DNA from: Candidatus Doudnabacteria bacterium RIFCSPHIGHO2_02_FULL_42_25
GTDB lineage: Bacteria > Patescibacteriota > Doudnabacteria > UBA920 > O2-02-FULL-48-8
NCBI GenBank assembly: GCA_001777665.1
Contig: MFEQ01000006.1
Span: 128,880-192,879, forward strand
Direction: 5' to 3'
Length of the DNA stretch: 64,000 nt
Shown: piece after piece, positions 6,927 to 20,107 of the stretch
Numbering within the stretch: position 1 is the first letter of the stretch
Layout of the letters: each line of letters opens with the position of its first letter
Translations under genes and position numbers: made by a program
The notes under the pieces: generated by a model
The model's database searches: none
Seen by the model: the letters and a program-made list of their open reading frames with translations, nothing else
Told to the model about the DNA's origin: nothing

Positions 6927-8384
6927 CTAAATTTTTTTGACTATTCCCTTGTTTGTATCTAACTCAACTAAATCTCCATCCTTAAAAATCGACGTTGCTA
7001 TTCTTGTTCCTATTATCGAACTGATGCCTAACTCACGGCTTACTATGGCCGCGTGACAAGTCAATCCACCTTCATCTGTCACAACAGCCGCGGCCTTACG
7101 CATTGCTGGCACGAAATCTGGTGAAGTCATTGCCGTCAAAAGAATTTCTCCTTTTTTCATTTTAGATGCTTCTGCAGCGGTTAACATTCTTCTAATCCTA
7201 CCTTTCAGTATAGATTTGCTACCGACGCTCCCCACGATCCCTTTCACTTCATTAGCTTTGCTGATCTTTTCTGTATATTTTGAAAGATGCTGTTTCGCTT
7301 TCTTTCCAATTATAACTTCCAATATTTTTCCATTTTTTGAATTTACAAAAATAACGTTGTTAATCCGTTTTCTGGCCAAATCTTTTAAAATATTCATTTT
7401 CTTTTTCTTTGTTAAAAGATTAATTTCAACCAAATCCAGATATTTTAATTCTTTTAAAGTTAGCTGAGTCTGCTTTGAAATATTTCTCAATAACAAATCT
7501 ACGGCATAGTGAATTCGGAAATGAACACTTTTTCTCTCGTCAGCAGTTGTGATAAGAGTCTGGACAGTATTAATCAATCTTCTATATTTATTTAACTCAT
7601 ATTCATTAATTGTATTTTTTTGTTCTTTGGCTAACTCAAAGTTTTCCAAAAGTATTTTATCAATTTTCGATTTCAACCATTTTTTGTTTTTAACTTCCAA
7701 TGATGTGAGCGTGTCCTCAAAATACTGATTGTCCCAGTATAATGGGCCATCGTAACCAAACGGAATCCATCCAAATTTATCAGATAAATTTCGAGCTAAT
7801 TTTTTCTTATTCTTTCCAGATTTGACGGCAAGAGCTGATTTGTAACGCGCAAGCTCCTCCTGAGTGGTTAAAGAAAGAGTTCTGGGAAGAAATAGTCGAA
7901 CAATTTTTACTCTAGGAATATTCAGTTTTTCCAATTCCAAATATAAATAGTCTTTTAAAGCTTCTGCTCCCACAAACCATGGCAAGGTGTTTATTCGATC
8001 ATATTTAAACCAAAGTTTTTGTAAATAAAACAAAGACTTGATAGATTTCGTTAATGTAAAATTTCCAGTTTTTAATTGTTCAAGAAATGTTAAGACGGCT
8101 TTTTCTAATGCTTGTCCTGTTTTTAACTGGTCCCTATGTATTCGAGAAAAGTAGTTCGGATGATGAATAAAATATCTTAATAAGTGTTGAGCTATTTTAT
8201 TCCACTCCTTTTGTTCATAAATCCAAATCCCCTTACCATCTTCAAAGAATAAGACATCGCAGTTAAATTTAATCCCGTGAATTTTTAGCATCTCGGGATG
8301 ATTTTTAGAAATAGTATTCCAGACCGAGGGGAGATAATCTATATTTCTCGCTCGAGGAATTAAATATCCTTTTTTGGGTAGCAT
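6927..8384 (-). CDS. Swivel-domain paralog A: divergent N-terminal domain + PEP-utilizing-enzyme mobile (phosphohistidine) domain
   Basis: 485 aa. C-terminus GEILLTAMTSPDFVPAMRKAAAVVTDEGGLTCHAAIVSRELGISSIIGTRIATSIFKDGDLVELDTNKGIVKKI matches PF00391 (GG.TSHAAI.ARE.G.P...G). Confidence 0.8.
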   Translation of the reverse strand: MLPKKGYLIPRARNIDYLPSVWNTISKNHPEMLKIHGIKFNCDVLFFEDGKGIWIYEQKEWNKIAQHLLRYFIHHPNYFSRIHRDQLKTGQALEKAVLTFLEQLKTGNFTLTKSIKSLFYLQKLWFKYDRINTLPWFVGAEALKDYLYLELEKLNIPRVKIVRLFLPRTLSLTTQEELARYKSALAVKSGKNKKKLARNLSDKFGWIPFGYDGPLYWDNQYFEDTLTSLEVKNKKWLKSKIDKILLENFELAKEQKNTINEYELNKYRRLINTVQTLITTADERKSVHFRIHYAVDLLLRNISKQTQLTLKELKYLDLVEINLLTKKKKMNILKDLARKRINNVIFVNSKNGKILEVIIGKKAKQHLSKYTEKISKANEVKGIVGSVGSKSILKGRIRRMLTAAEASKMKKGEILLTAMTSPDFVPAMRKAAAVVTDEGGLTCHAAIVSRELGISSIIGTRIATSIFKDGDLVELDTNKGIVKKI

Positions 8385-8385
8385 A

Positions 8386-9486
8386 CTATTTTATCTTCCT
8401 CACAATCCCCTTATTTGCATCAACTTCAATAAAATCTCCATCTTTAAAAACTTTTGTAGCAATTTGTGTTCCAATTACACAAGGTTTCTTCATTTCACGA
8501 GCTGTAATCGCAGCATGAGATAAAATCCCACCTGCATCAGTTACAAATGCTGCCGCCTTATGCATGATCGGCAAAAACTCTGGTCTGGTCGCCCCTGTAA
8601 CCAGAATACTTCCTGGTTTAAAATCTTTAACTTTACTTGGATCTAATACAATTCTTACTTTTCCCGTAACTTTTCCCGGGAAGGCTATTGCCCCTTTAAG
8701 TTCTGATTTTTTCGAGGTTTGTTTTAGTAATCTTTCTATTTTAGAAATATCTGGACCAATTAGGAACTGAAACGAATCTTTTTCTCTTATTAAAACTGCT
8801 CCTGCGTCTCTTTTCTTCAGTTCGAGTTTGTTGGGTAATTTCCTTTTATTAAAATAATCATTTACTTCTTCTTTAATTAAACAAAGTAACAACTGATAAG
8901 AATACTTAGTTTCTTTACTCAGTAGTTTAACAAATCGAATCATAAAATCTTCTGTGCGGTTCAAAACTGGCTCAGCAGTTAGTCTGGCTTCTTGTAAACT
9001 TGGTAAATACTGTTTCAAGAGATCTGGATGCAAATAATCAACAACATACTTCACATTGATATGGGGATGATAGTATGCCAATACTCTTTTCCAAAATTCA
9101 TCATATAACGTTTTTGTAATTAGTCTGCCTTCGTATTGATCTATGAATTTCAAAATACCTTTAGCTTGAAATTTTAATTTATTCGCAATAACCTTAGCCT
9201 CCTTAGGATTCTTTACAATTCTTTGCGCTAGATAATTTCCCAATCGATCGCGATCAGATTGTCTCATCCATCCATTACTGCGCCCGTGAGATATAAAAAT
9301 GATTGATTGGGATTTGAATGGTTTTCCGCCAAACAAAAGTTCTTTGGTGTATTGTTGGATAAAATGCGTGCTCGTTAAAAAACTCCACCGACCATCGTAG
9401 ATTTTAGTCCAATCCTCGTGTTTAAACGATTTGATATTCATGCTACTAATTATGCCAGATAGCGCTATTATTGACAAAAGCGCCAA
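8386..9486 (-). CDS. Swivel-domain paralog B (short class)
   Basis: 366 aa. ...VTDAGGILSHAAITAREMKKPCVIGTQIATKVFKDGDFIEVDANKGIVRKIK. N-terminal region homologous to paralogs C and F. True start may be the internal ATG at 9441. Confidence 0.8.
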   Translation of the reverse strand: MALLSIIALSGIISSMNIKSFKHEDWTKIYDGRWSFLTSTHFIQQYTKELLFGGKPFKSQSIIFISHGRSNGWMRQSDRDRLGNYLAQRIVKNPKEAKVIANKLKFQAKGILKFIDQYEGRLITKTLYDEFWKRVLAYYHPHINVKYVVDYLHPDLLKQYLPSLQEARLTAEPVLNRTEDFMIRFVKLLSKETKYSYQLLLCLIKEEVNDYFNKRKLPNKLELKKRDAGAVLIREKDSFQFLIGPDISKIERLLKQTSKKSELKGAIAFPGKVTGKVRIVLDPSKVKDFKPGSILVTGATRPEFLPIMHKAAAFVTDAGGILSHAAITAREMKKPCVIGTQIATKVFKDGDFIEVDANKGIVRKIK

Positions 9487-9499
9487 ATTGTGCTATTAT
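9471..9499 (+). promoter_or_regulatory. sigma70-type promoter of GC-rich cassette 2
   Basis: TTGACA(9471-9476), 17 bp, TATTAT(9494-9499). Same tattgacaaaag context as cassette 1. ~120 nt leader. Confidence 0.6.
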
Positions 9500-9618
9500 G
9501 GATAGTTTATAATAGTTCTTTTTAAGGTATGAGTCTGTGTTTGGCTTTAATTTTTTAAAACTAGTCTCGGGCTCATACCAATAACTCACCTAACAGTTCA
9601 ACCTCGAATCAGGAGACG

Positions 9619-10233
9619 ATGATGAGAACAGTGACGTTTTATTGTATGCGGCATGGCCACCGACTCAAGGGTGGCGACGAACTCAGTAAACTGGGCTACA
9701 AGCAGGTCGAGGCATCGGCGAAGGAGCACCTCAGCGGCATCAACTTCGTCGCTACCTTCAGCAGTGGGATGCATCGAGCAAACCAAAGCGCGGCCCTGAT
9801 CCTCGGAGCGCTAGGAATTACTGAGCTGTATGTGCAGCGCGAAGAAGGTTTCAGCTTTGAATGGTTCTGGTCTGATCCTAACATGCCGAAGGTCGAGATG
9901 CTGAACTACGCGACGATCGGCGAGTACTTCGACAACATGTTTCCGCTGGCGTTTGCGACCAGAGGTCGCGTGATGCAGACGCTGTTGCATCTGGCGTCCA
10001 GCATCGTGGCCTGGTCCGGTGCCGACCGTGAAGGTCCTCTCAATGTTCTCGTCGTTTCCCATTCCCCGACGATCGACACGGCAGTACCGGAGCCGAAGGG
10101 CTTCCCGCGACTGAAGGAAGCAGACATCTGCGTCTATAACGTCTCCGTCGACGACCAGGGTCACTCAACCATCGAAAGCGCTCGCTACCTCTCGGCGCCG
10201 AAAGTCGAAGAGAACGATACAGCGAAGGTCTAG
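9619..10233 (+). CDS. GC-rich histidine-phosphatase (PGAM/SixA-like) family protein
   Basis: 204 aa. FYCMRHGHRLKGG (RHG catalytic motif), SSGMHRANQSAALI (second Arg region), VLVVSHSPTID (C-terminal His). GC-rich. Confidence 0.7.
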   Translation: MMRTVTFYCMRHGHRLKGGDELSKLGYKQVEASAKEHLSGINFVATFSSGMHRANQSAALILGALGITELYVQREEGFSFEWFWSDPNMPKVEMLNYATIGEYFDNMFPLAFATRGRVMQTLLHLASSIVAWSGADREGPLNVLVVSHSPTIDTAVPEPKGFPRLKEADICVYNVSVDDQGHSTIESARYLSAPKVEENDTAKV

Positions 10234-10270
10234 TCGAACGTGAGTCACACTCAAGGAGGGTGTGCGAATC

Positions 10271-10326
10271 AAAAAGGCGATCGGCCGAATTCCATTGTGG
10301 AATTCCCGCTCGCCTTTTGCTTTTGT
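10271..10326. terminator. Bidirectional terminator after cassette 2 / paralog C
   Basis: aaaaaggcga...(gaattccattgtggaattc)...tcgccttttgcttttg. Confidence 0.55.
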
Positions 10327-11364
10327 CTAAATTTTTCTAACTGTGCCCTTATTCGCATCTACTTCTACCGAATCTCCGTCTTTTAGAACTCTAGTAGCAT
10401 ACTTAGTTCCTACTATACATGGTTTCTTCAACTCACGGGCAGAAATTGCAGCATGTGAAAGCATACCTCCCGCATCTGTTACAAAAGCGGCAGCTTTTCT
10501 CATTAGCGGCAAAAATTCTGGCCTCGTCATTCCGGTGACTAAAATATCTCCTTTTTTAAACCCTTTTGATTCTTTAGGATCAAGTATAACTAAAGCCTTA
10601 CCCTTTACTAATCCTGGAAATGCTGGTTGACCCTTTATCTCCTCTCCTGTTTTTTCTATGCTTTTTTCAAATTTATCTGAATCTCTGCCCACTTTAAGCT
10701 GAACTAATCCATTCCTGTAAATAATAGCGCACGACTTATATCTACTCGCCAATTCCTTTTTTGCTGGAAGGTTCCCAGTTTTCCAGTACTGATCAATCTC
10801 CTCACGCGTGACATATAAAACATGTTCTTTCTTGTAGCGAGTCTTTGTTGCGATTTGCTTTGCCATTAATTCCATGAATTTTTCTGTTTCGGCAAAAACA
10901 GGTTCTGCATATAACCGCGCCTTTTGAAGCTGCGGCAAGAATTCTTTATACTTAGCGGGAGGCAAACTATCAACAACCACCTTCACTACACGATGTGGGA
11001 CGCAGTACTCATAAAGATATTTAACAAATTTATTATAGTCTTCAGCATCTATAGTTTTCTTTCTTGAAGTGACATTGATAAAATTTAGAATCTGATCGGT
11101 TTTAGCAATTAAATCCTGGGTCCAATGCAGTAGTTGTCGTTTATTCGTTACAATTTTATCAGCCAAATACTGACTGAATTTTTTATAGTTACCCGCGTTG
11201 AGATAACAAGTACTGTAACCAGAATGAGAAATGAATATCGCTCTATCAAAACCATACCCCAAAGACTTTTTGAGTAGTTTAGTATATTGATAACCGAGAT
11301 GGGAGTTATTAAGTAATTTCCAATGCCCAGCCCAATGTTTTATCCATTCTTCTCGATTACTCAT
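10327..11364 (-). CDS. Swivel-domain paralog C (short class)
   Basis: 345 aa. ...VTDAGGMLSHAAISARELKKPCIVGTKYATRVLKDGDSVEVDANKGTVRKI. N-terminus aligns with B along its length. Confidence 0.8.
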   Translation of the reverse strand: MSNREEWIKHWAGHWKLLNNSHLGYQYTKLLKKSLGYGFDRAIFISHSGYSTCYLNAGNYKKFSQYLADKIVTNKRQLLHWTQDLIAKTDQILNFINVTSRKKTIDAEDYNKFVKYLYEYCVPHRVVKVVVDSLPPAKYKEFLPQLQKARLYAEPVFAETEKFMELMAKQIATKTRYKKEHVLYVTREEIDQYWKTGNLPAKKELASRYKSCAIIYRNGLVQLKVGRDSDKFEKSIEKTGEEIKGQPAFPGLVKGKALVILDPKESKGFKKGDILVTGMTRPEFLPLMRKAAAFVTDAGGMLSHAAISARELKKPCIVGTKYATRVLKDGDSVEVDANKGTVRKI

Positions 11365-11367
11365 TTT

Positions 11368-12246
11368 TTATGTCAGGTCTAATGCTTCTTTATCTTTAAT
11401 TATTTCATCAATCAATTCCGGAGTTAGCTCCCACTGTTGATCTTTATATTTCAAGACTATATCAGTGCCTGTTTCATCCCCAACCAAATCAAGACTAAAC
11501 CCTTCGCTGAATCCAAACCCATTTTTATCTGGTAAGGACTCTATAAATTTCATAACATCGTCTCGCCCCTTTGTCTTTTCGATGACTTTCATTAAAAAAC
11601 TTTCAGTGACCGTAGCATGAGAACCCAAAAATCGTTGTAATTCATTTTGAAATTTAAGATATTTATCTGGATTGTCAGCAACTAACCGCTGAAAGTTAGG
11701 TAAAATTTCTAAATATCTCCTTACTATCTCTGCAATTCCTGCCGCTTGTCTGCTATAACTGGTGGAGGAATGATCTTTAAGTTTTCGAACAAGATCGTCG
11801 CTTTCTTCTACAGCAAATAATAAATAATCTTTTTTATTTACATAATGATCCATAGCTGCATCTTTAAATTCACCCTCCCAAACAAAATTCAATCTTTCGT
11901 CTACCATGTCCTTTCTTCCAACTTTCACCGATCCGGCCACCAACTCTTTGATGTCTTCAAGAGTTGTATCTTCTCCGATTTCGGGTTGGTCAGCCAACAT
12001 CTGGCGCATCGCGGTTTCCACAGAACGTTCACGGGAGGATCCGAATGCCACAGCCACTTCAGGATTGGGATTTTTTTCTTTGCCTACTTCGGATGCATGT
12101 TTTCTTCCTTTTTCTGTTAAACGCACTGTGGTATCGGGTTGCCCTTCTGCAGCCTTAGCTTTATCATCATGCCTAAAAAATTCCAAATGAATCGAAGCTT
12201 TGGGTAATGACTCTCGACTTTCACGACCTAAATCTCTTGTTTCCAT
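11368..12246 (-). CDS. AT-rich, in-line histidine-phosphatase-like protein (divergent)
   Basis: 292 aa. EFFRHDDKAKAAEG (RH. motif), VAFGSSRERSVETA (second Arg). Native codon usage, same strand as the array. Confidence 0.45.
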   Translation of the reverse strand: METRDLGRESRESLPKASIHLEFFRHDDKAKAAEGQPDTTVRLTEKGRKHASEVGKEKNPNPEVAVAFGSSRERSVETAMRQMLADQPEIGEDTTLEDIKELVAGSVKVGRKDMVDERLNFVWEGEFKDAAMDHYVNKKDYLLFAVEESDDLVRKLKDHSSTSYSRQAAGIAEIVRRYLEILPNFQRLVADNPDKYLKFQNELQRFLGSHATVTESFLMKVIEKTKGRDDVMKFIESLPDKNGFGFSEGFSLDLVGDETGTDIVLKYKDQQWELTPELIDEIIKDKEALDLT

Positions 12247-12259
12247 ATATTTTTATTAA

Positions 12260-13744
12260 TTATCTTAATTTTCGCACAATTCCATTGTTCGCGTCCACCT
12301 CCACCATATCGCCATCTTTAAAAACTCGAGTTGCCACTTTAGTTCCTATAATGCAGGGAATTTTTAGTTCCCTTGAAATAATTGCAGCATGTGAGGTAAT
12401 TCCACCTTCATCGGTAACAATAGCCGAGGCCTTATTCATGGCGGAAATCATTTCTGGTCTAGTCATAGAAGCTATAATTATGTTTCCCTTTTTCATCTTT
12501 TTCATATCTTGAAAAGTAAGAATGACCTTTACTGTCCCTTTTGCGATACCAGTTGAAGCCACCATCCCGGAAATCTTTTCTAATGAATTCGAAGTTTTGG
12601 GATAAATTAACTTCTTTAATTTTTTAGCATCTGGTCCTTCATAAACAAAAATACCTGAACCACGAGTAGCCACTACTGCACTTGCTTGTTTGCGCTTTTT
12701 AATCAAAACTTTCAATTTTACTTTATCGAGAGATATTAATTGAGGTAATTCATCAATATAGGTATATTTCATCTCCTCAAAAGAAATTTTTAAACGAGAT
12801 GAATATTCTTTCATAAATAAACCGATTATATTGTTAGACATCATTGAGTACTTTTTTCTTTCGTCCTGCATATAAGCAAACGCTTCTACCACTCTTATTA
12901 AAGTCTTTGACCAGCTATCTAGCTTGAGCTTTTTAATTAGGTCTTTTTTCTTTGTACCACTCTTTCTAAGTTGATATTGAGTATTTTCAATTGCCACCTT
13001 AGCCTTTTGAAGAGTTAATTTATTCAGTTGTTGACCAAAGTAAGTCGCATCCAACCAAGGAATATATGCATAATTACTATGAATCCAAAAATATTTCTTA
13101 GAATGCTCTTTGAGTAGTGATTGTTTGAGTTTTGGGTCTGTTTTTTTTAATTTTATTTTTGCTAAGTCAAGGGCTTCTGCTTTAACAAAAGATAAGTTCA
13201 CCGGCTGGATAAGAATAGTATAAAGCTCTATAAAACGATTTTTGTAGCCAAGCGAAGAAATTACTTTATCAAAATGAGGAACCAAAAATTCCTCGGTTGT
13301 CATCGTAAATGGGTCCTGGATGGCTATTCCATAACTAAATTCTTCTCCGTAAGCATCATCAAATTTTTTGTAAAATTCAAATAATTCTTGATTTGAAAGC
13401 TTTTTTAAATCTATACGAATTACCCTCGCAATAACCCTATCTAAGATTATTACTTTCTCTTCCCAAATATCGACTAATTTGTCTAAATATTTAGGATTTG
13501 CCTTCAACTTTCTTATAAACAAATCTCTTATTCTAACCGAATCCTCATAACACCAACTCCATTCTCCATGTTCCTTACTATCAAAAAAATCCATAATTAC
13601 ATTATGGGAAGTACCAAAAAACTTACGAAACTCGAAAGCCGCTCTATGCACTGGATAGTGGAAATGTAAAACACCGTGATAACCTTTTCTAAACCAGTTT
13701 AGTTTGTTTAACCCATATTTCTTAACTAATTGTGCCGGCTTCAT
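12260..13744 (-). CDS. Swivel-domain paralog D (long class)
   Basis: 494 aa. ...VTDEGGITSHAAIISRELKIPCIIGTKVATRVFKDGDMVEVDANNGIVRKLR. Overlaps E by 4 nt. Confidence 0.8.
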   Translation of the reverse strand: MKPAQLVKKYGLNKLNWFRKGYHGVLHFHYPVHRAAFEFRKFFGTSHNVIMDFFDSKEHGEWSWCYEDSVRIRDLFIRKLKANPKYLDKLVDIWEEKVIILDRVIARVIRIDLKKLSNQELFEFYKKFDDAYGEEFSYGIAIQDPFTMTTEEFLVPHFDKVISSLGYKNRFIELYTILIQPVNLSFVKAEALDLAKIKLKKTDPKLKQSLLKEHSKKYFWIHSNYAYIPWLDATYFGQQLNKLTLQKAKVAIENTQYQLRKSGTKKKDLIKKLKLDSWSKTLIRVVEAFAYMQDERKKYSMMSNNIIGLFMKEYSSRLKISFEEMKYTYIDELPQLISLDKVKLKVLIKKRKQASAVVATRGSGIFVYEGPDAKKLKKLIYPKTSNSLEKISGMVASTGIAKGTVKVILTFQDMKKMKKGNIIIASMTRPEMISAMNKASAIVTDEGGITSHAAIISRELKIPCIIGTKVATRVFKDGDMVEVDANNGIVRKLR

Positions 13745-15138
13745 TTAATTTTCCTTACCATTCCTTTACTTGTATCTACTTCGATCCTGTCACCATTTTT
13801 AAAAATTGTGGTAGCAATTTTGGTTCCAACTATACATGGCACGCCTAGCTCTCTGGAAACTACCGCGGCATGGGACATTAATCCGCCAACGTCAGTAACA
13901 ATCGCTTTGGCTTTACGCATGAGTACAATATAATCCGGTTCAGTCATGGTAGTAATAAGAACTTCACCAGCTTTCATTTTTTCAGGATTACGAGCTGATA
14001 ACATAATTCTGGCCCGACCTATCACTAAAGGTCCTCGGCTGACGGTAATTCCTGTGACACTACCCTGATTCACGTTATTTCGAGTTTGATACTTTTTGGC
14101 GATTTTCGCTGCTGCTCTACCGGTCAGAATCTTGTATTCTTTATTCTTCATCGAGATAACACAAAGTTTTTTTCTCTGATTTATTTCATCATTAGAAAGT
14201 TTTTTTCCAGTGGTATCCAGATCCACCCATTCTTCAGCAGTGTAATATTGTAAATCATTAAGAGATATTCGATATTTTCGGCTAGTCAGCCGAAGCAAGT
14301 TATCAATCTTGTAAAGCGTTCGCCAAACTTCCGCCTTACGATCATCCTGCCACCAGATAGAAAAAGATAAAATCTCTGCCTGATTGATCACAGATTTAGG
14401 TAACTTAAATTTCTTAATAATGTCAGCTTTTCTTTTCTTAACACTCTTTATGTAATTTTCAATTTTTTGTATTTCGAATTTTAACCGTTTTTTATTCAGG
14501 CCTTTCAATCTCTGATAAAAGTCATTTCTAGTCAGTCTTCTGGTTTCGTAATAACTATTTTCAATCCATCCCCAGTTTTGACTATGTTTTTCTAATAATG
14601 TCGTCAGACTTTTTTTATTTCTGGCTCTTAGTCCAGCTTTAAATAATTCTAAATCTGATTCCTGATGGAAGCTCGGTCGATCCAAAGCTAAGAGCGCTTC
14701 CAATACTTCATCCAAATTGTTTTTCGGAACAAATTTACGGATTTGATTTCTTAGAAATACTGGAGCGCTATAATTGGCAGTTTCTGGGATTAATGCAATA
14801 TTCCAAAATTGTATGAATTTATCATAAAGTTCCTTAACAGATTCAGATTGGAACTGATTTAATTCTTTTTTTGCTTTCATATAAACTTTCCAAACTTGTC
14901 TTCTTATCTGTGCAGGTAACAGCCATCTTTTAATAATCTGCAATCCGTGACGTTCGACAGCTACTTTATCCCAACGATAAGTTAATCGATCATGATCTAA
15001 TATTCCAAAGGTCCCTGGCCAAAAAATATCATAAGAGTTCAATTTTCCTGCCCAAGGCAATATAAAAAAAGAATGATACAAAATCTTTGAATCAATCGGC
15101 CCCCACTGTTCCAGTTCTTTCGAAATTGCTCTACTCAT
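13741..15138 (-). CDS. Swivel-domain paralog E (long class)
   Basis: 465 aa. ...VTDVGGLMSHAAVVSRELGVPCIVGTKIATTIFKNGDRIEVDTSKGMVRKIK. Confidence 0.8.
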   Translation of the reverse strand: MSRAISKELEQWGPIDSKILYHSFFILPWAGKLNSYDIFWPGTFGILDHDRLTYRWDKVAVERHGLQIIKRWLLPAQIRRQVWKVYMKAKKELNQFQSESVKELYDKFIQFWNIALIPETANYSAPVFLRNQIRKFVPKNNLDEVLEALLALDRPSFHQESDLELFKAGLRARNKKSLTTLLEKHSQNWGWIENSYYETRRLTRNDFYQRLKGLNKKRLKFEIQKIENYIKSVKKRKADIIKKFKLPKSVINQAEILSFSIWWQDDRKAEVWRTLYKIDNLLRLTSRKYRISLNDLQYYTAEEWVDLDTTGKKLSNDEINQRKKLCVISMKNKEYKILTGRAAAKIAKKYQTRNNVNQGSVTGITVSRGPLVIGRARIMLSARNPEKMKAGEVLITTMTEPDYIVLMRKAKAIVTDVGGLMSHAAVVSRELGVPCIVGTKIATTIFKNGDRIEVDTSKGMVRKIK

Positions 15139-15141
15139 TAT

Positions 15142-16275
15142 TTATTTAATCTTTCTCACTATCCCCTTATTCGCATCTACTTCGACTCTGTCGCCGTCTT
15201 TTAAAAGCTTAGAAGCTAATTTGGTTCCAGTAATACAAGGTATTTTCAGCTCGCGGGAAACAATCGCTGCATGACACGTAATACCCCCTTCATCAGTAAT
15301 GACAGCTTTTGCTTTTTTCATTATCGGAACAAAAAAAGGATTGGTCATTACTGTGACTAAGATATTGCCAGGTTTGAAATTATTAATTTCTTCATTTTTC
15401 AAAATGATCGAAACTGTTCCTTTAATCGAAGCTGGCCCTCGAGATGAGACAGATCCTACAATTTGGTTATGGGTAGTGCCTTTTTCGGGCAAATATTCAA
15501 AACCTTTCTTTTTAAAGAAGGTTTCTCTGGAGACTCCGGTAAAAACTGCTTTGCCAAAAAATATATAACCTTTTAATCTTGAGTGAAGCTCTTTTCGATT
15601 AGGAGAGAATGTTTGATCCGTAAGCATTTTCTCCAATTCTTTGAATGTAATGAAAGCAGAATACTTTGTCGATAAATTTCTCTTTTGCAAAAGCTCATGT
15701 CCTATACTCCGCCAATATTCAACAAGCTCCTCAATGACTCCTTCAGAGACATGTCTTGCATGTATCAATCTTTTCAAAATTTCTTTGGCTTGTTTTGGAT
15801 ATTTCTTATGAATTTCTGGAGCCCATTGATCTTGGGGTAGTAAATAACTCGCAGTATACCACGGATACATTTCTGCGACATAAATTTTTAATTTTTTGAA
15901 CCTTCCATGATCTTTAAAATTTTTATCCTTGTTCGCATTTTGAAGTAACTTTCTAATTTGTTTCGTAAGAAAGATATATCTTTTAATTCTTTGCTCGCTT
16001 AGCACACTAAGTTTGGAGTTAGCCACAGCTTTTATAAACGCTTTGGACTCTTTCGTCAATCGATAAGTTTCTAGCAATCGTCCATTGTAAACCGAAAGTT
16101 GATTTGGAACACCAGTGCCAAAAACTTCAATAAGCCTAGGATTCATATGGACTGACCACCATTCTGCCCACGCTAGTGTAAAATCACGCGTCCAAGCTAA
16201 TTTAATTTCCTTTTTCATGGTTTTATTATGACAAATAACCCCACCTATTGACAAATTGGCTAAAATGGTGTACAA
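15142..16275 (-). CDS. Swivel-domain paralog F (short class)
   Basis: 377 aa. ...ITDEGGITCHAAIVSRELKIPCITGTKLASKLLKDGDRVEVDANKGIVRKIK. By homology to B/C, the start is probably MKKEIKLAW at 16218. Confidence 0.8.
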   Translation of the reverse strand: MYTILANLSIGGVICHNKTMKKEIKLAWTRDFTLAWAEWWSVHMNPRLIEVFGTGVPNQLSVYNGRLLETYRLTKESKAFIKAVANSKLSVLSEQRIKRYIFLTKQIRKLLQNANKDKNFKDHGRFKKLKIYVAEMYPWYTASYLLPQDQWAPEIHKKYPKQAKEILKRLIHARHVSEGVIEELVEYWRSIGHELLQKRNLSTKYSAFITFKELEKMLTDQTFSPNRKELHSRLKGYIFFGKAVFTGVSRETFFKKKGFEYLPEKGTTHNQIVGSVSSRGPASIKGTVSIILKNEEINNFKPGNILVTVMTNPFFVPIMKKAKAVITDEGGITCHAAIVSRELKIPCITGTKLASKLLKDGDRVEVDANKGIVRKIK

Positions 16276-16276
16276 T
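16248..16276 (+). promoter_or_regulatory. sigma70-type promoter of GC-rich cassette 3
   Basis: TTGACA(16248-16253), 17 bp, TACAAT(16271-16276). ~175 nt leader to ATG 16454. Confidence 0.55.
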
Positions 16277-16453
16277 TGATCGTTATAATTAAGTATTTAT
16301 AAATGCCGCAAGGCGTGAATAAATCGATTGTAACTTGTGTACCTTACAATCTAATGGTATGGGTTTATGCCTCAAGTTCTCAAGAGGACTTTGGACACGA
16401 ACCCATACCAAGATCTCAACTACTCACGTTCCACTTTCGTTCTGGAGAGCGAC

Positions 16454-17047
16454 ATGAAAACTCTGACCTATCGGCGCCATTCTTTGAAGGATGGCCACTA
16501 CATCAGCAAGGCTGGCATCGAACTGGCTCGGGATGAAGCTGAGGTGTACGAGAGCAGGCCGGACGCCGTGGAATTCAGCTGCGTTTTCCACGGACCATTC
16601 GTTCGTACTGCTCAGACCGCCCTCGCCTTCTGCTGCGCACTGACAGTGACGCCGCCGGACGCAATGCCGATCATCGAAGAAATCGGCAACGACGCGATCG
16701 TCGCTCTCATCGTCAACGATGCATTCAAGGCTGCGGTCGCCAAGGGCGAGTCCAACTATCAGGCGACCGTCTCGTCCCACAGTGCAACGGAGCTCAGCGA
16801 CCTCTCACGGACGGCGATGGCAGCGGTGACCAAGATGTTCGATGCGATGAAAGACAAGAACGACGTCGGAATCGCGTTTGGTCACAGCCCGATCATCGAG
16901 CTGGCTGTATGCAACATGTCCGGCCTGCCCGACGGCTGGAATGAGCTCAATGAGATGGATGGGCTGGTCCTCGAACAGGATGACGCCGGTCAGATTCGCG
17001 TCGTGGAGCTCATCCGCGCGAACCGCGAGCAGCCGGCGACGGCGTAG
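16454..17047 (+). CDS. GC-rich histidine-phosphatase (PGAM/SixA-like) family protein
   Basis: MKTLTYRRHSLKDGHY (RHS), HGPFVRTAQTALAF, IAFGHSPIIEL. Start moved from track ORF 16367 to the ATG at 16454, which has a ggagag SD; the GC shift begins here. Confidence 0.65.
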   Translation: MKTLTYRRHSLKDGHYISKAGIELARDEAEVYESRPDAVEFSCVFHGPFVRTAQTALAFCCALTVTPPDAMPIIEEIGNDAIVALIVNDAFKAAVAKGESNYQATVSSHSATELSDLSRTAMAAVTKMFDAMKDKNDVGIAFGHSPIIELAVCNMSGLPDGWNELNEMDGLVLEQDDAGQIRVVELIRANREQPATA

Positions 17048-17078
17048 TAGAGATCACCCCCGTAAGGGGCACAACCGC

Positions 17079-17127
17079 AAAAGGCGGGCATTTCCAGGTC
17101 AATATGACTGGACTGCCCGCCTTTTTT
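17079..17127. terminator. Bidirectional terminator after cassette 3 / paralog G
   Basis: aaaaggcgggca...tgcccgcctttttt. Confidence 0.6.
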
Positions 17128-17147
17128 CATTGTTATGTTTTTATCGT

Positions 17148-18644
17148 TTATAACTTTCGAACGATACCCTTATTTGCATCCACTTCGACTTTGTCACCAT
17201 CTTTTAAAACCTTCGTTGCTATTTTGGTACCAATAATGCACGGGGTGCCTAGCTCGCGAGAAACAATTGCTGCATGAGAAGTAATGCCGCCTTGTTCAGT
17301 AATAATTGCCGCAGCTTTTTTCATCGCAGGTACTACATCAACATCTGTAGCGATACTAACCAAAATATCGCCTTGTTTCATCTTCGGCATGTCCTTTGCC
17401 CTGATGATTATTTTCACGGTTCCTTTTGCATAACCAGGTTGAACGGTTTGGCCTGTAAATTCTTTTACATTTTTATTGATCTTCGTGGCTACCATTGATC
17501 TCAACTTTTTTTCCATTGCTCCCATGTATACAGTTTCAAAACCCTCTTCAGTATAAAGGACACAATGTTTTAATCTTATAGACAAAATATTTTTATCTAT
17601 CCTGCCATTTAATAAAGCATCTTTGACTTCTGCTTGAAGCATAAATTGGAGTTGATACCTAGAAATTCCAAGACGTTTTGCAATTTCCTTGAGTAATGTT
17701 TTATGAACAAAATATAAATTTAAAAGCTGGGCGTTTCTGCGAATTAGTTTTGACAACGCAAAATCTTTGGCGTTTTCGAAAAGCCTTTTATATTGCACAG
17801 AGACTTTTAATTTTTTATAGATCTTTTTCTGCTTCTCTCTAGCGGTTTTCAAGTATTGTTCTTGCTTTGCCAATATTTTCTTGGTATTGATTCCTGTTTT
17901 CGCTAATTCGAATAATTCTTTGAGATAGTGATCCACTCCAAAGGGATCAACATTCCCAGCGTAAATGTAGCCGAGATGACCCCATTTTTGCGCATGCTTA
18001 GTTAGGGCATCTTTCAAATGCTGAGGTATAGTTCTCGCTTTAAGAAATTTTTTGTATTTCTCATGAATAACTAGGAAATCTTTCCGCTCATCGGCGACGA
18101 TAGTTTTCCTTGAGGGCGTAGTTAAAACAACAAATGCCTGTTCTGCCTCTTCTTTACTGTTACTAACTGCGTATAAATAGCTCTTTAATTTATTCGTGAA
18201 ATTATTATGAAATAAGTCTGCGGCAACCGGTATCCACCCATAGGTATAAAGTTTGGTCTGAAGCTTATCGGTATCCTTGTACAATTTCCAAAGCTGCTTA
18301 TTATTATATTTCTCAAGCGGTAACTTATCTAATTTCTTGGAAAACAAAATTAACTTATGGGACCAAGAAATAATGTTTCTATCCAGTTCTTTACCGAATT
18401 TAGGTCTTTCTAGCAATGCTCTTATAATTGATTCAGCAACTTCATTGGAGTCTTTTTCTCCAACATAAAAATCCAAAGTAAAACCTTTGTATAGTCCCAA
18501 GAACTTTTTGTATCTTTTTATAAAATCGTAACTCCAATCAGAAGCAAAACAAGAGGCCGGGACTTGGAAAAAATAAATATCGCAATCCGGAATATTTTCT
18601 CCAAAAAGCCACTTGTCCTTATCAAACAATAACTTCGGCTTCAT
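17148..18644 (-). CDS. Swivel-domain paralog G (long class)
   Basis: 498 aa. ...ITEQGGITSHAAIVSRELGTPCIIGTKIATKVLKDGDKVEVDANKGIVRKL. Overlaps H by 4 nt. Confidence 0.8.
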   Translation of the reverse strand: MKPKLLFDKDKWLFGENIPDCDIYFFQVPASCFASDWSYDFIKRYKKFLGLYKGFTLDFYVGEKDSNEVAESIIRALLERPKFGKELDRNIISWSHKLILFSKKLDKLPLEKYNNKQLWKLYKDTDKLQTKLYTYGWIPVAADLFHNNFTNKLKSYLYAVSNSKEEAEQAFVVLTTPSRKTIVADERKDFLVIHEKYKKFLKARTIPQHLKDALTKHAQKWGHLGYIYAGNVDPFGVDHYLKELFELAKTGINTKKILAKQEQYLKTAREKQKKIYKKLKVSVQYKRLFENAKDFALSKLIRRNAQLLNLYFVHKTLLKEIAKRLGISRYQLQFMLQAEVKDALLNGRIDKNILSIRLKHCVLYTEEGFETVYMGAMEKKLRSMVATKINKNVKEFTGQTVQPGYAKGTVKIIIRAKDMPKMKQGDILVSIATDVDVVPAMKKAAAIITEQGGITSHAAIVSRELGTPCIIGTKIATKVLKDGDKVEVDANKGIVRKL

Positions 18645-20107
18645 ACTTTTCTTACGATTCCTTTGTCTGCATCCACTTCAATCATATCCCCATCTTTAAA
18701 AAGCTTAGTTGCGAATTTAGTACCAATGACACACGGTTTCTTCATCTCGCGAGCAACAATTGCAGCATGAGATGTGATGCCTCCACTATCGGTAACGAAC
18801 CCACGCGCTCTGCCCATTGCGGGTAAAACATCTGGAGTTGTAGTAACCGCAACGAGAATATCGTCGTGGGTAACTTTTTGTAGATCTGGAATCCCAAACA
18901 CTAATTTCGCCCGTCCTCGTGCTTTGCCCGGGAATGCAGATTGACCCTCGATGTAATCTTGTTTAATCTCAATGGCTTTTTCAAGAATTCTACCCAAGGT
19001 CGCATCGATTTTATTTGCAGGAATAAACTTAATTTTTCTATTCGAAACAATTTTAAGCACTCGGTGCCTTCTCCTTAAAATTTCAACCGTATCTATTTTT
19101 TTACCTGAAACGAAATCTAAAATCTCGTTCCTTAGTGCATAGCGAAAAAAGTAAACAGGGACCGCATGTTTTTTTGCTAATTGAAGAAATACTGTCTCTA
19201 AAGCATATTGAATGACATGTCGAACATTTAGCCGATAGGCTTTCGTAAACATAAGCGTACGCGCTTGATCAAACATATAAATTTCGTGGTCGGATAACCC
19301 AAGATCTTTTTCTATTCTCCTTTGTTCTTTTTCTAAATTTCTGAAGTAGTTTCTATGTTCATTCAACTGCTCTTGAGCAGTTTTTTCATTCTTGAGAATT
19401 TTCCTCACTCTCTGAATAAAATCTTCATCTGTCCAAAGTGGACCTTGATAACCAAAATTTAACCACTTGTACTTTTTAGCATGGGCTTTAAATTTCTTGG
19501 AAACAACTATTTTATTGAGAGTTTTATACTGCTTTATTATTTCTAATAGTCTCAATAGCTCTGCCCAATTTAAATCAGGTTGATCGGGACTAATCAATAT
19601 TGCCAAATACTTCTGCGTGGGATTCTTGGGAGTACTATATTTCTCTAAAATTCCTGCGAGACGATTGCTGAAAAAATTGTGATCATAATCACTTACAACA
19701 GCTAAGCAGCCCAATCCGTTTAACTCAACGTAATGTTTGAACACTTGTTTTAGCCACGAAAGATATTTCTTATCATTCCACCTTCTCAAATCTTGATCAA
19801 TGACTTGATGAGCAAGTTTAAAGACAATTTGGCCATGATAAATATGCTCTTCTAAATTGCCGTGAGCATCTAGTTTTCCTTTGGTCAATCTATCTTGGAT
19901 TTTTTGGCCGAGTCTATTCCACAATTTAATATCTACACCCCATTGACCTTCATCCTGACTGACATGCATTACGGTGTTACTAAAATAGTCACCGACAAAT
20001 CGCTTTACAGATGGTGAGAACAGAAACCCATCCTCAATCATTGTCCATGAAAACAAGTTCATATTTGTTTCCATTATTAAGTTTTTTATCGAGTGCGGTT
20101 TAATCAT
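18641..20107 (-). CDS. Swivel-domain paralog H (long class)
   Basis: 488 aa. ...VTDSGGITSHAAIVAREMKKPCVIGTKFATKLFKDGDMIEVDADKGIVRKV. Overlaps the ATP-grasp gene by 4 nt. Confidence 0.8.
   Translation of the reverse strand: MIKPHSIKNLIMETNMNLFSWTMIEDGFLFSPSVKRFVGDYFSNTVMHVSQDEGQWGVDIKLWNRLGQKIQDRLTKGKLDAHGNLEEHIYHGQIVFKLAHQVIDQDLRRWNDKKYLSWLKQVFKHYVELNGLGCLAVVSDYDHNFFSNRLAGILEKYSTPKNPTQKYLAILISPDQPDLNWAELLRLLEIIKQYKTLNKIVVSKKFKAHAKKYKWLNFGYQGPLWTDEDFIQRVRKILKNEKTAQEQLNEHRNYFRNLEKEQRRIEKDLGLSDHEIYMFDQARTLMFTKAYRLNVRHVIQYALETVFLQLAKKHAVPVYFFRYALRNEILDFVSGKKIDTVEILRRRHRVLKIVSNRKIKFIPANKIDATLGRILEKAIEIKQDYIEGQSAFPGKARGRAKLVFGIPDLQKVTHDDILVAVTTTPDVLPAMGRARGFVTDSGGITSHAAIVAREMKKPCVIGTKFATKLFKDGDMIEVDADKGIVRKV

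What the first reader, a model, noticed from the sequence alone, without database searches (positions are those of the whole stretch)
6927..20107. Paralogs fall into a short (345-377 aa: B, C, F) and a long (465-498 aa: A, D, E, G, H) class with class-specific N-terminal motifs
Short-class N-termini align with each other: W..W..L..SH.GYQYTK.LL ... IFISH(G/S)(G/R)S ... RL.AEPV...TE.FM. Long-class proteins share a different aromatic/Gly block: FGWIPFGYDGPLYWDNQYFED in A, KWLNFGYQGPLWTDEDF in H, WGHLGYIYAGNVDPFGVDHY in G, FWIHSNYAYIPWLDATYFG in D, NWGWIENSYYETRRLTRNDFY in E. The phospho-His module is conserved while the presumed substrate-binding module diversifies. That is the pattern expected for specificity radiation under selection, as in multi-substrate detox or defence families.
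Basis: seen in the sequence. Interest (0 to 1): 0.5.

Follow-up and report, generated by a model that had tools for sequence, protein, structure and literature searches.

The report
One kinase engine, eight interchangeable acceptor subunits
Eight neighbouring genes in a tiny symbiotic bacterium encode variants of one enzyme part, a variable binding module joined to a phosphate-carrying domain; all probably depend on the single ATP-binding gene next to them, an apparently undescribed layout of a known enzyme type whose targets are unknown.

Summary
Eight intact paralogs (6927-20107, minus strand) end in a PEP-utiliser phospho-His swivel domain. They fall into about 350-aa and 465-498-aa classes.

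The two N-terminal modules are not different folds. Both resemble the rifampin-binding domain of rifampin phosphotransferase (RPH). The long class adds a helical insertion of about 110 residues, which carries the W-I-P-F-G-Y-D-G-P loop. B and C belong to a conserved CPR/DPANN-wide group. F has the short architecture only.

A stand-alone ATP-grasp gene (20104-21039) sits immediately upstream. The locus therefore looks like a split RPH/HpeHI-type dikinase with one ATP-grasp for eight acceptors. Similar arrays recur in CPR and DPANN genomes, never with two ATP-grasp genes. Some are fused into proteins of 2,000 to more than 4,400 aa.

The paralogs are ancient. Their nearest relatives lie in other genomes, so this is not a recent local radiation. 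N-modules change 1.5-7 times faster than the His domain. dS is saturated, so selection cannot be tested. Substrates are unknown.

Histidine-phosphatase-like genes are interleaved. Three of them are GC-rich, lie on the opposite strand and share a promoter found nowhere else in the window.

The parts
20104..21039 (-). Stand-alone ATP-grasp (PPDK_N) subunit, 311 aa. First gene of the array; its stop overlaps the start of H by 4 nt.
   Evidence: Pfam PF01326 E 3.4e-98, no other domain. NCBIfam partial matches to the N-terminus of PEP synthase (6.6e-100) and RPH (7e-82). 85% identical ortholog at the same position in L001.
18641..20107 (-). Paralog H, long class (488 aa): RPH-like N-module with insertion, plus His swivel domain.
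   Evidence: A2_N 1e-80, insertion HMM 1e-25, His domain 2e-42. Ortholog in L017, N-module 33-34% identical.
17148..18644 (-). Paralog G, long class (498 aa).
   Evidence: Orthologs in L001 (N-module 55%, His domain 90%) and L017.
16367..17047 (+). hp4: GC-rich (58%, GC3 0.74) histidine-phosphatase-like gene on the strand opposite to the array. The real start is probably the internal Met at about 16454.
   Evidence: Homologs in L017, L036, L020 and L022 are also on the opposite strand and GC-enriched. 5'UTR hairpin 16355-16410, fold z -6.0.
16246..16276 (+). Promoter of hp4 (TATTGACAAA-N15-TANNAT), back to back with a promoter-like site for F.
15142..16275 (-). Paralog F, divergent short-architecture member (377 aa as an ORF; likely start 16218, giving 358 aa).
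   Evidence: Only weak relatives elsewhere (25% to a protein in L078).
13741..15138 (-). Paralog E, long class (465 aa).
12260..13744 (-). Paralog D, long class (494 aa).
11368..12246 (-). hp3: histidine-phosphatase-superfamily protein of 292 aa, host-like GC, same strand as the array. It lies 3 nt upstream of C and is the conserved partner of the B/C-type short class.
   Evidence: R25, H26, R72, R74 and H210 are invariant in 13 homologs. The profile matches phosphoglycerate-mutase-like PDB entries (E 1.7e-4). It lies next to, or a few genes from, the short-class gene in about ten other surveyed loci.
10327..11364 (-). Paralog C, short class (345 aa), member of the conserved CPR/DPANN orthologous group.
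9619..10233 (+). hp2: GC-rich (57%, GC3 0.71) histidine phosphatase on the opposite strand, with RHG, R..QTA and SHSP motifs.
   Evidence: Pfam His_Phos_1 E 1.1e-7, above the cut-off.. Homologs in L001, L007 and L055.
9469..9499 (+). Promoter of hp2 (same extended motif), back to back with a promoter-like site for B.
8386..9486 (-). Paralog B, short class (366 aa as an ORF; likely start 9441, giving 351 aa).
   Evidence: Ortholog in L017 with 68% identity in the N-module.
6927..8384 (-). Paralog A, long class (485 aa). Insertion at about residues 153-264, WIPFGYDGP at 206-214, D282-x-R284-K285 on the helix that aligns with the catalytic R666/E667/K670 of RPH.
   Evidence: AF2 pLDDT 93.7. Foldseek against RPH-Lm: E 4e-13, TMq 0.55-0.58. 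HMM alignment to RPH 651-866. Motif conservation.
6371..6850 (+). hp1: GC-rich (57%, GC3 0.67) degenerate member of the hp family. It has THG instead of RHG and lacks the second His. Opposite strand.
   Evidence: Homologs in L022, L026 and L075.
6248..6278 (+). Promoter of hp1 (same extended motif).
6173..6239 (-). Remnant of a ninth paralog. Only the last ~20 codons of the His domain survive (..SKTRDLIEVDANKGIVRKISN*), and they abut the hp1 promoter.
   Evidence: Ninth copy in repeat family D2. Sequence read.

Best explanation
The region is a split, 'hub-and-spoke' dikinase of the rifampin-phosphotransferase / PEP-synthase type.

The ATP-grasp protein (20104-21039) binds ATP and transfers its beta-phosphate to the catalytic His of a swivel domain, releasing AMP and Pi. 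Here that swivel domain is supplied in trans by any of eight acceptor proteins (A-H). In each acceptor the phospho-His domain then swings back onto its own N-terminal helical module and phosphorylates whatever that module binds. The net reaction is ATP + X + H2O -> AMP + Pi + X-P, with eight different X.

Short and long classes share one fold. The short class is the minimal core. The long class has an extra five-helix insertion whose W-I-P-[FY]-G-Y-D-G-P loop probably adds a wall to the substrate pocket.

The B/C-type short class is a conserved gene, usually paired with a phosphoglycerate-mutase-like protein (hp3). It probably acts on a common metabolite. The long and F-type modules are highly diversified and probably act on variable small molecules. 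The interleaved histidine-phosphatase-like genes probably reverse or process the phosphorylation.

**Shown here:** domain content, fold relationships, gene order, conservation of the array and of a single ATP-grasp, fusion proteins, relative rates.

**Inferred:** trans-phosphorylation of all eight acceptors by one ATP-grasp, phosphorylation of small molecules, and the role of the phosphatases.
For: **Domains.** PF00391 is C-terminal in all eight genes. T436, G439, G440 and H444 (the T/SxxGGxxxH motif) are invariant. PPDK_N stands alone in the upstream gene.

**Catalytic helix.** The long-class profile aligns with RPH residues 651-866. This places D282/K285 on E667/K670, with R284 adjacent. R666/E667 are essential for the second phosphotransfer in RPH (PMC4844700).

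**Precedent for a split enzyme.** In HpeHI, CreHI and PpsAB a separate ATP-grasp subunit works with a subunit that carries the RIF-binding-like and swivel domains (PMC12167813).

**One ATP-grasp for many acceptors.**
- Across the 82 loci examined (the window, L001 and 80 survey loci), 42 have two or more acceptor genes (up to nine genes, ten swivel domains). None has more than one ATP-grasp gene.
- Genes in the window are translationally coupled, with gaps of -4 to 13 nt.
- 13 loci fuse the ATP-grasp to acceptor modules. These include single ORFs of 2,019, 2,350, 3,181, 3,761 and at least 4,472 aa, each with one ATP-grasp followed by 4 to 9 or more [N-module + swivel] units.

**One fold, two classes.** N-module-only hhalign gives 97.9%, E 5e-13.

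**The B/C type is a conserved core.** Homologs are 41-61% identical across CPR and DPANN, with one copy per locus in 38 loci. hp3 lies next to, or a few genes from, the short-class gene in about ten loci. Elsewhere the neighbours are other phosphatase types: a canonical His_Phos_1 protein in L011 and a HAD hydrolase in L083.
Against: - No biochemical evidence exists and no substrate can be named.
- No NCBIfam or Pfam model covers the N-modules. Scores against the RPH, PpsA-like (PRK08296) and PEP-synthase models are far below their cut-offs and come from the His domain only.
- The Arg of the RPH catalytic pair is not at the aligned position in the long class (R284 against R666). G and H lack the acidic residue.
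- I could not superpose coordinates, so placing the WIPFGYDGP loop at the pocket is inference. MAFFT and hhalign also disagree on which short-class segment it matches.
- Many short-class genes stand alone, with no ATP-grasp within 10 kb. They must use a distant ATP-grasp or another donor.
- Only 64 kb of this genome was seen, so other ATP-grasp genes may exist.
Confidence: 0.62

Rival explanations
1. Xenobiotic or antibiotic detoxification battery. Each acceptor inactivates a different toxic small molecule by phosphorylation, as RPH does with rifamycins. The array gives a genome-reduced symbiont broad chemical resistance. This uses the same mechanism as the best explanation and is a specific claim about the substrates.
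For: RPH is the closest solved structure. N-modules are extremely diverse between genomes: 124 clusters among 197 modules, and the N-module of A finds only 240 relatives in 1.84 billion representatives. N-modules evolve 1.5-7 times faster than the His domain.
Against: The best-conserved member (B/C type) behaves like a housekeeping gene. Phosphatase genes in the same array would undo a detoxifying phosphorylation. There are no resistance genes or efflux pumps in the neighbourhood. No sequence-level membership in the RPH equivalogs (57-71 bits against cut-offs of 999 and above).
Confidence: 0.2
2. Metabolite salvage or central-metabolism kinases. The acceptors phosphorylate ordinary metabolites (sugars, glycerate-type acids, vitamins, nucleosides) that CPR and DPANN cells take from their hosts. 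They would replace missing conventional kinases. The PGM-like proteins would act as mutases or phosphatases in the same pathways.
For: In L082 the short-class gene and its hp3-like neighbour sit between pyruvate kinase and a full PEP synthase. TrmB-type sugar regulators are neighbours in 5 archaeal loci. His_Phos_1 or HAD neighbours recur. In two Doudnabacteria the array abuts a flavin-salvage cluster: FMN riboswitch, EamA transporter, CTP_transf_like protein and, in L001, a flavokinase. The family is restricted to host-dependent lineages of both domains.
Against: Universal metabolites would predict conserved orthologs, yet most N-modules are singletons at 30% identity. The neighbour associations are few and differ between lineages.
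Confidence: 0.25
3. Regulatory phosphorelay. The N-modules bind proteins rather than small molecules, and the swivel His passes phosphate to them, as Enzyme I does to HPr or as proposed for VadK. The histidine-phosphatase-like proteins would be SixA-like phospho-His phosphatases that reset the acceptors.
For: SixA belongs to the same phosphatase superfamily (my own knowledge, not tested). VadK is a PPDK-derived autophosphorylating His kinase that binds metabolic enzymes (PMC13400623). Enzyme I N-domains appear among the weaker fold matches. The hp genes have their own promoters and structured 5'UTRs.
Confidence: 0.1
4. Anti-phage or other conflict system, in which the diversified modules recognise invader molecules.
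For: Only the pattern itself: a conserved catalytic part, hypervariable recognition parts, tandem paralogs, and compositionally foreign genes inserted in the array.
Against: No PADLOC model matches any component. No N-module was found in IMG/VR contigs. There are no nucleases, NTPases or abortive-infection effectors in the locus. The paralogs are old and syntenic, not rapidly turning over.
Confidence: 0.03

Closest known systems
Two-component small-molecule dikinases: HpeHI, CreHI and phenylphosphate synthase PpsAB (PMC12167813)
   Same: The ATP-grasp is a separate polypeptide. The second polypeptide carries an RPH-like substrate domain followed by a C-terminal swivel domain with the T/SxxGGxxxH motif. 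The presumed dikinase chemistry yields AMP and Pi. These features were tested here by domain scans, AF2 models and fold searches.
   Different: The known systems are 1:1 gene pairs with acceptor subunits of about 640 aa that act on phenolics in aromatic catabolism. Here one ATP-grasp precedes eight acceptors of 345-498 aa. Related genomes fuse one ATP-grasp to as many as 9 or more acceptor modules. There are no aromatic-catabolism genes nearby. The host is a CPR bacterium. PRK08296-type NCBIfam models are matched only through the His domain, far below their cut-offs.
Rifampin phosphotransferase (RPH-Lm; PDB 5FBS, 5FBT, 5FBU, 5HV1)
   Same: It is the best structural match for both classes over the N-module plus swivel domain. 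The domain order matches, and some relatives of ~680-850 aa have the fused ATP-grasp / N-module / swivel order of RPH. The helix carrying the RPH catalytic R666/E667/K670 aligns with the long-class D-x-R-K motif.
   Different: The protein here is split. The N-module is much smaller: 240-390 residues against about 430 in RPH, and the short class lacks a whole subdomain. Identity is 14-22%. RPH equivalog scores are 57-71 bits against cut-offs of 999 and 1700. The ATP-grasp and swivel domains are closer to PEP synthase than to RPH.
PEP synthase (PpsA) and pyruvate phosphate dikinase
   Same: They give the best sequence matches for the ATP-grasp (E 6.6e-100) and for the swivel domain (E 1e-25 to 2e-51), including the GGxT(S/C)HAAI(V)SR signature in A, D, F, G and H.
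   Different: There is no PEP/pyruvate-binding TIM-barrel domain (PF02896) in any of the nine genes. The domain order differs, because the substrate module precedes the swivel domain. Some databases name these proteins 'PEP synthase/PPDK', which is misleading.
Prodiginine ligases PigC, RedH and HapC
   Same: They have the same three-domain family architecture. There are partial NCBIfam matches to the C-terminal ~110-190 residues. They show that the family can use phosphorylation to activate a group for condensation, not only to tag a substrate.
   Different: They are single polypeptides of about 880 aa, and scores are far below the cut-offs (55-76 bits against 1300 and above). There is no biosynthetic context here.

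Membership tests
Two-component RPH-like dikinases (HpeHI/CreHI/PpsAB) | ATP-grasp (PPDK_N) encoded as a separate polypeptide next to the acceptor gene | tested here: met
   A 311-aa protein with PF01326 only (E 3.4e-98), overlapping the start of H by 4 nt.
Two-component RPH-like dikinases (HpeHI/CreHI/PpsAB) | Acceptor subunit made of an RPH RIF-binding-domain-like module plus a C-terminal swivel domain with T/SxxGGxxxH | tested here: met
Two-component RPH-like dikinases (HpeHI/CreHI/PpsAB) | One acceptor per ATP-grasp (a 1:1 pair) | tested here: not met
   One ATP-grasp and eight acceptors here. Ratios of 1:2 to 1:9 occur in related loci.
Two-component RPH-like dikinases (HpeHI/CreHI/PpsAB) | Sequence-level membership (about 45% identity among HpeH, CreH and PpsA; NCBIfam PRK08296-type models) | tested here: not met
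   PRK08296 models are matched only at the last ~105-130 residues, at 54-97 bits against cut-offs of 578-730.
Two-component RPH-like dikinases (HpeHI/CreHI/PpsAB) | ATP-dependent phosphorylation of a small-molecule hydroxyl that requires both components and yields AMP and Pi | not testable with these tools
   This needs enzyme assays.
Rifampin phosphotransferase (RPH) | Single polypeptide with ATP-grasp, RIF-binding domain and swivel domain; NCBIfam equivalog NF041857 or NF000283 | tested here: not met
   The protein is split. Scores are 53-71 bits (NF041857, cut-off 999) and 39-54 bits (NF000283, cut-off 1700).
Rifampin phosphotransferase (RPH) | Catalytic Arg666-Glu667 (and Lys670) on the helix that faces the swivel His | tested here: inconclusive
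   In the long-class profile, D282 (42/48) aligns with E667 and K285 (43/48) with K670. The conserved Arg is R284 (43/48), not at the R666 column. G and H lack the acid. The short class has invariant R150 and E154, but the equivalence could not be fixed without coordinates.
PEP synthase / PPDK | PEP/pyruvate-binding TIM-barrel domain (PF02896) C-terminal to the swivel domain | tested here: not met
   No PF02896 hit in any of the nine proteins. All end with the swivel domain.
Histidine phosphatase superfamily, branch 1 (hp2, hp3, hp4; hp1) | RHG motif, second Arg (R..QTA) and second catalytic His | tested here: met
   hp3 family: R25, H26, R72/R74 and H210 are invariant in 13 sequences. hp2 and hp4 have RHG/RHS, R53 and SHSP. 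Only hp2 passes the Pfam cut-off (32.2 against 21.7 bits). hp3 and hp4 are below it. hp1-type proteins lack the first Arg and the second His, so they are probably inactive.
Known anti-phage defence systems (PADLOC) | Match of any component to a defence-system model | tested here: not met
   No hit at E <= 0.01, apart from a 13-bit chance-level match for hp3.

The most novel reading that the evidence does not exclude
CPR bacteria and DPANN archaea carry a previously undescribed modular phosphorylation platform. One ATP-grasp 'engine' charges up to ten or more interchangeable acceptor modules. These are encoded as gene arrays or as single megaproteins of more than 4,000 aa. Each module would have its own fast-evolving binding domain for molecules obtained from, or directed at, the host. 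The platform would be controlled by histidine-phosphatase cassettes with a foreign GC-rich composition and their own private promoter, which insert into the arrays and sometimes replace acceptor genes.
Probability: 0.3. Interest if true: 0.8.

Novelty: new variant of a known kind. Interest (0 to 1): 0.6.

Why it matters
**Cost to the genome.** These arrays take more than 1% of a roughly 1-Mb symbiont genome and recur across two domains of ultra-small, host-dependent microbes. They are therefore likely to matter for that lifestyle.

**Annotation error.** Public databases label the proteins 'hypothetical', 'PEP-utilizing enzyme' or even 'PEP synthase/PPDK'. The last label could wrongly credit CPR and DPANN genomes with gluconeogenic capacity.

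**A testable design.** Recognising the locus as a one-to-many split dikinase gives a concrete biochemical hypothesis. It extends the newly recognised two-component dikinase subfamily from 1:1 aromatic-catabolism enzymes to a modular design. It also provides a natural set of minimal (240-residue) and extended substrate modules for studying how specificity is built in RPH-like kinases.

**A puzzle in genome composition.** The GC-rich phosphatase cassettes keep their composition across lineages at only 20-35% protein identity. They are a separate, unexplained problem.

Tried and rejected
Nei-Gojobori estimates on eight ortholog comparisons of array genes give pS 0.72-0.87, so dS is saturated or undefined. 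Only relative dN could be used.
- **AFDB fold search.** The library was not available.
- **Model coordinates.** They are not exposed, so the motifs could not be mapped onto the RPH pocket.
- **Sequence-only PDB searches.** The single-sequence search reaches only the His domain. The short-class profile does the same. The long-class profile reaches about 110 residues further into RPH.
- **Pfam, NCBIfam and PADLOC.** No model covers the N-modules.
- **Homolog search with hp2.** It returned only itself, so no GC-rich donor lineage could be named.
- **Viral contig scans.** The scan with the short class found only generic His domains.
- **Rfam.** It found nothing in the array or in the GC-rich islands.
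- **Literature.** Searches for PF00391 or PEP-utiliser arrays in CPR and DPANN found no description in the held library.
- **Pseudogene idea.** I considered that the paralogs are decaying fragments of PEP synthase and rejected it. All are intact, have conserved orthologs and give high-confidence folds.
- **Spurious-ORF idea.** I considered that the GC-rich ORFs are chance ORFs in GC-rich DNA and rejected it. The RHG, R and H motifs and the homologs in ten other loci are in that reading frame.

Full report
**What is there.**
- The window comes from a Candidatus Doudnabacteria (CPR) genome, because protein A is 100% identical to a protein from that source.
- Between 6927 and 20107 the minus strand carries eight intact ORFs: A 485, B 366, C 345, D 494, E 465, F 377, G 498 and H 488 aa.
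- In each, the last ~105 residues are a PEP-utiliser 'mobile' phospho-His swivel domain (PF00391, E 1e-22 to 1e-26). The first 240-390 residues match no Pfam model.
- T436, G439, G440 and H444 (A numbering; the T/SxxGGxxxH signature) are invariant.
- Directly upstream, overlapping the start of H by 4 nt, is a 311-aa protein that is nothing but a PPDK_N ATP-grasp domain (E 3.4e-98).

**Check of the observation.**
- The two size classes are real. They also appear family-wide. In 197 complete single-module homologs collected from 82 loci, lengths peak at 340-379 and 460-519 aa.
- The long-class aromatic/Gly block is a genuine family motif. It reads [YF]-x-W-I-P-[FY]-G-Y-D-G-P, with W 46/48, Y 42/48, G 41/48 and P 35/48.
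W7, W11, G13, Y120, H124, K128, D132, R150, E154 and E161 are at least 90% conserved.
- F is short but lacks these motifs. It aligns end to end with the short-class profile only weakly (hhalign 89.6%, E 2e-6). It keeps just the W..W start and an R-x3-E pair.
- His domains are 42-70% identical among the eight. N-modules are at most 35% identical even in forced global alignments.
- The TTG starts of B and F are probably artefacts. The promoters of the neighbouring opposite-strand genes lie inside those N-terminal extensions.

**The two classes are one fold.**
- AF2 models built on family alignments are confident: A has pLDDT 93.7 and C has 95.6.
- The two models share one topology. A strand, a helix and a beta-hairpin come first, followed by a helical bundle and a second beta-hairpin, and the swivel domain comes last. 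A has five extra helices at about residues 153-264.
- Profile-profile comparison of the N-modules alone, with the His domains removed, gives 97.9% probability, E 5e-13 over 207 columns. It shows a single large insertion in the long class.
- The WIPFGYDGP loop (A 206-214) lies inside that insertion.
- MAFFT and hhalign disagree on which short-class segment, if any, corresponds to this loop. I leave that open.

**What the N-module is.**
- Sequence searches against the PDB with single proteins reach only the swivel domain.
- Other PEP-utiliser proteins match only through the ~100-residue swivel domain.
- The long-class HMM aligns with RPH residues 651-866. This places the conserved D282-x-R284-K285 motif (42-43 of 48) on the RPH helix that carries R666/E667/K670. 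R666 and E667 are required for the second phosphotransfer in RPH (PMC4844700). The acid and the Lys coincide. The Arg is offset by three residues.

**How it most likely works.**
- RPH has a split relative: the two-component dikinases HpeHI, CreHI and PpsAB. In these a separate ATP-grasp subunit works with a subunit that holds the RIF-binding-like and swivel domains. HpeH alone can move phosphate between substrates (PMC12167813).
- The window has exactly those two kinds of subunit, but in a 1:8 ratio.
- I therefore propose the following. The single ATP-grasp phosphorylates the swivel His of each acceptor in trans, releasing AMP and Pi. Each acceptor then phosphorylates the ligand of its own N-module.

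**Support for 'one engine, many acceptors' comes from other genomes.**
- I fetched 80 loci from GTDB species representatives using the short-class alignment. I analysed them together with the window and L001, using my own ORF calls and HMMs.
- 42 of the 82 loci have two or more acceptor genes within about 20 kb, up to nine genes and ten swivel domains. None has more than one ATP-grasp gene.
- In 13 loci the ATP-grasp is fused to acceptor modules. Some are proteins of about 680 aa with the RPH domain order. Others are single ORFs of 2,019, 2,350, 3,181, 3,761 and at least 4,472 aa, in which one ATP-grasp is followed by 4 to 9 or more [N-module + swivel] units.
- These fusions are Rosetta-stone evidence that one ATP-grasp works with many acceptors.
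- In a second Doudnabacteria genome (L001) the synteny is kept. An ATP-grasp (85% identical) is followed by four acceptors, including the orthologs of G (63%) and A (46.5%) and a B/C-type gene.

**Is it a radiation under selection?**
- The N-modules are indeed the fast part. In ortholog pairs, dN of the N-module against dN of the His domain is 0.36 vs 0.05 (G), 0.74 vs 0.22 (H), 0.53 vs 0.25 (A), 0.30 vs 0.13 (B) and 0.43 vs 0.28 (C). For the ATP-grasp dN is 0.11.
- Synonymous sites are saturated in every comparison of array genes (pS 0.72-0.87). dN/dS therefore cannot be estimated, and positive selection is neither shown nor excluded.
- The duplications are ancient. Each window paralog has its best N-module match in another genome. 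Of 143 modules in arrays with three or more complete paralogs, 135 have their nearest relative in a different locus and only 3 in the same one.
- Diversity is very large. The 197 N-modules fall into 124 clusters at 30% identity, 100 of them singletons. The N-module of A finds only 240 relatives (E <= 0.001) among 1.84 billion representative proteins.
- The exception is the B/C type. It forms one cluster of 39 members, with one copy per locus except here, and is 41-61% identical across CPR and DPANN.
- The picture is therefore a conserved core acceptor plus a large, old, fast-diverging set of accessory acceptors. It is not a recent local burst.

**Clues to substrates are weak.**
- The B/C-type gene is usually accompanied by a protein of about 300 aa (hp3 here, 11368-12246, 3 nt upstream of C). 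This protein keeps the catalytic R-H...R...H set of the histidine-phosphatase / phosphoglycerate-mutase superfamily.
- In other genomes the neighbour is a canonical His_Phos_1 protein or a HAD hydrolase.
- One locus places the pair between pyruvate kinase and a complete PEP synthase. Five archaeal loci have a TrmB-type regulator nearby.
- In two Doudnabacteria the array adjoins a flavin-salvage cluster.
- These hints favour an ordinary metabolite for the core acceptor.
- The hyper-diverse accessory modules would fit variable small molecules, with RPH-like detoxification as the obvious analogy. Nothing tests this.
- No component matches a known defence system, and no N-module was found in viral contigs.

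**The interleaved genes.**
- Three genes on the opposite strand split the array into three translationally coupled units: [ATP-grasp-H-G], [F-E-D-hp3-C] and [B-A]. They are hp1 (6371-6850), hp2 (9619-10233) and hp4 (16367-17047).
- Their GC content is 57-58% and their GC3 is 0.67-0.74. All array genes have 33-39% GC and GC3 around 0.30.
- hp2 and hp4 have the RHG, R..QTA and SHSP motifs of histidine phosphatases. hp1 is degenerate.
- Homologs occur in ten other arrays from several CPR lineages at only 12-41% identity. Of the 14 genes counted, 13 are on the strand opposite to the array and GC-enriched (GC3 0.41-0.79 against 0.23-0.49 for the array genes).
- Each of the three is preceded by the same extended promoter, TATTGACAAA-N15-TANNAT. 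With up to one mismatch this pattern occurs only at those three places in 64 kb. The expected number is 0.09, and 0 of 100 shuffles reach 3.
- hp2 and hp4 have long 5'UTR hairpins with similar stem bases.
- Next to the hp1 promoter lies the last ~20 codons of a ninth acceptor gene (6173-6239..DLIEVDANKGIVRKISN*). The hp1 cassette appears to have replaced the rest of that gene.
- I have no explanation for a composition that stays foreign at this depth of divergence. A search with hp2 found no close relative and hence no donor.

**Comparison with what is known, and novelty.**
- By mechanism and architecture this belongs with the RPH-like small-molecule dikinases, specifically the two-component subfamily.
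- It fails the 1:1 stoichiometry of that subfamily and fails sequence-level membership in the curated RPH, PpsA-like and PEP-synthase models.
- It also lacks the PEP/pyruvate domain of PEP synthase, although some databases use that name for it.
- I found no description of these arrays or megaproteins in the held literature. That is absence of evidence in one library only.
- I rate it a new variant of a known kind.

**Verdict.**
- Substrates and physiological role remain unknown.

Noticed in passing
window 6371-6850, 9619-10233, 16367-17047 (+ strand); also L001 5135-5788, L007 16943-17563, L017 4890-5525, L022 11643-12359 and 14905-15414, L026 6718-7314, L055 11972-12574: Small histidine-phosphatase-like genes are wedged into the arrays on the opposite strand. 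They have 55-63% GC (GC3 0.67-0.80), against 33-45% GC for the array genes. The anomaly recurs in several CPR lineages although the proteins are only 12-41% identical, so one recent transfer cannot explain it.
   Followed up: partly
window 6248-6278, 9469-9499, 16246-16276 (+ strand): All three GC-rich genes share an extended promoter, TATTGACAAA-N15-TANNAT. It occurs nowhere else in the 64-kb window (expected 0.09). At B and F it sits back to back with promoter-like sites for the array genes.
   Followed up: partly
window 6173-6239 (- strand): Remnant of a ninth paralog. Only the last ~20 codons of the swivel domain remain (..DLIEVDANKGIVRKISN*), and they abut the hp1 promoter. The hp1 cassette appears to have replaced the rest of the gene.
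   Followed up: partly
window 9526-9579 and 16355-16410 (+ strand): The 5' leaders of hp2 and hp4 have long hairpins with similar stem bases (GGUAUGRG...CYCAUACC). The hp4 region folds with z = -6.0. The annotated ATG of hp4 lies inside the hairpin, so the real start is probably the internal Met near 16454.
   Followed up: partly
L041 5565-11624, L046 6494-13546, L050 81-9626, L051 8978-20263, L063 7541-20957, L073 2-9070: Giant single ORFs (2,019 to at least 4,472 aa) occur in DPANN and CPR genomes. Most have one ATP-grasp followed by 4 to 9 or more repeats of [RPH-like module + swivel domain]. The L073 ORF is cut by the contig start, so its N-terminus, and any ATP-grasp, is not seen.
   Followed up: partly
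window 11368-12246 with 10327-11364; L012, L019, L021, L026, L036, L040, L045, L048, L002, L082: The conserved short-class acceptor is usually accompanied by a phosphoglycerate-mutase-like protein of about 300 aa that keeps the catalytic R-H...R...H residues. In L082 the pair lies between pyruvate kinase and a complete PEP synthase.
   Followed up: partly
window 8386-9486 (B) and 15142-16275 (F): The TTG start codons give N-terminal extensions that overlap the hp2 and hp4 promoters. The internal ATGs at 9441 (MNIKSFKHEDW) and 16218 (MKKEIKLAW) are the likelier starts.
   Followed up: partly
His domains of A-H and of 197 homologs: The residue two positions before the catalytic His is Leu in 41/42 B/C-type proteins. 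It is Thr, the regulatory phosphorylation site of PEP synthase and PPDK, in most long-class proteins.
   Followed up: yes
window 4042-4161 (- strand), with 3063-4001 and 4968-5381: An FMN riboswitch (Rfam RF00050, 98 bits) lies upstream of an EamA-family transporter. With the CTP_transf_like gene this forms a flavin-salvage neighbourhood just downstream of the array. The same synteny, with a flavokinase, is present in L001.
   Followed up: partly
window 22450-24750: About 2.3 kb between tRNA-Pro(GGG) and parB has no ORF longer than 95 aa. Parts of it reach 46-56% GC (measured to 23900). There is no Rfam match even at E <= 1. It may be an unknown RNA or decayed genes.
   Followed up: partly
window 21164-21592: A patch of 49% GC lies immediately upstream of the ATP-grasp gene, with overlapping ORFs on both strands (127 and 141 aa) and no Pfam or NCBIfam match. 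L001 has two GC-rich small genes (GC 0.53) in the corresponding place.
   Followed up: no
database names of P0034, P0060, P0078, P0111, P0136, P0192: Some sources name these acceptor proteins 'phosphoenolpyruvate synthase/pyruvate phosphate dikinase', although the window acceptors and the Pfam annotations of these hits show no PEP/pyruvate-binding domain. This is a likely source of wrong metabolic reconstructions for CPR and DPANN genomes.
   Followed up: partly
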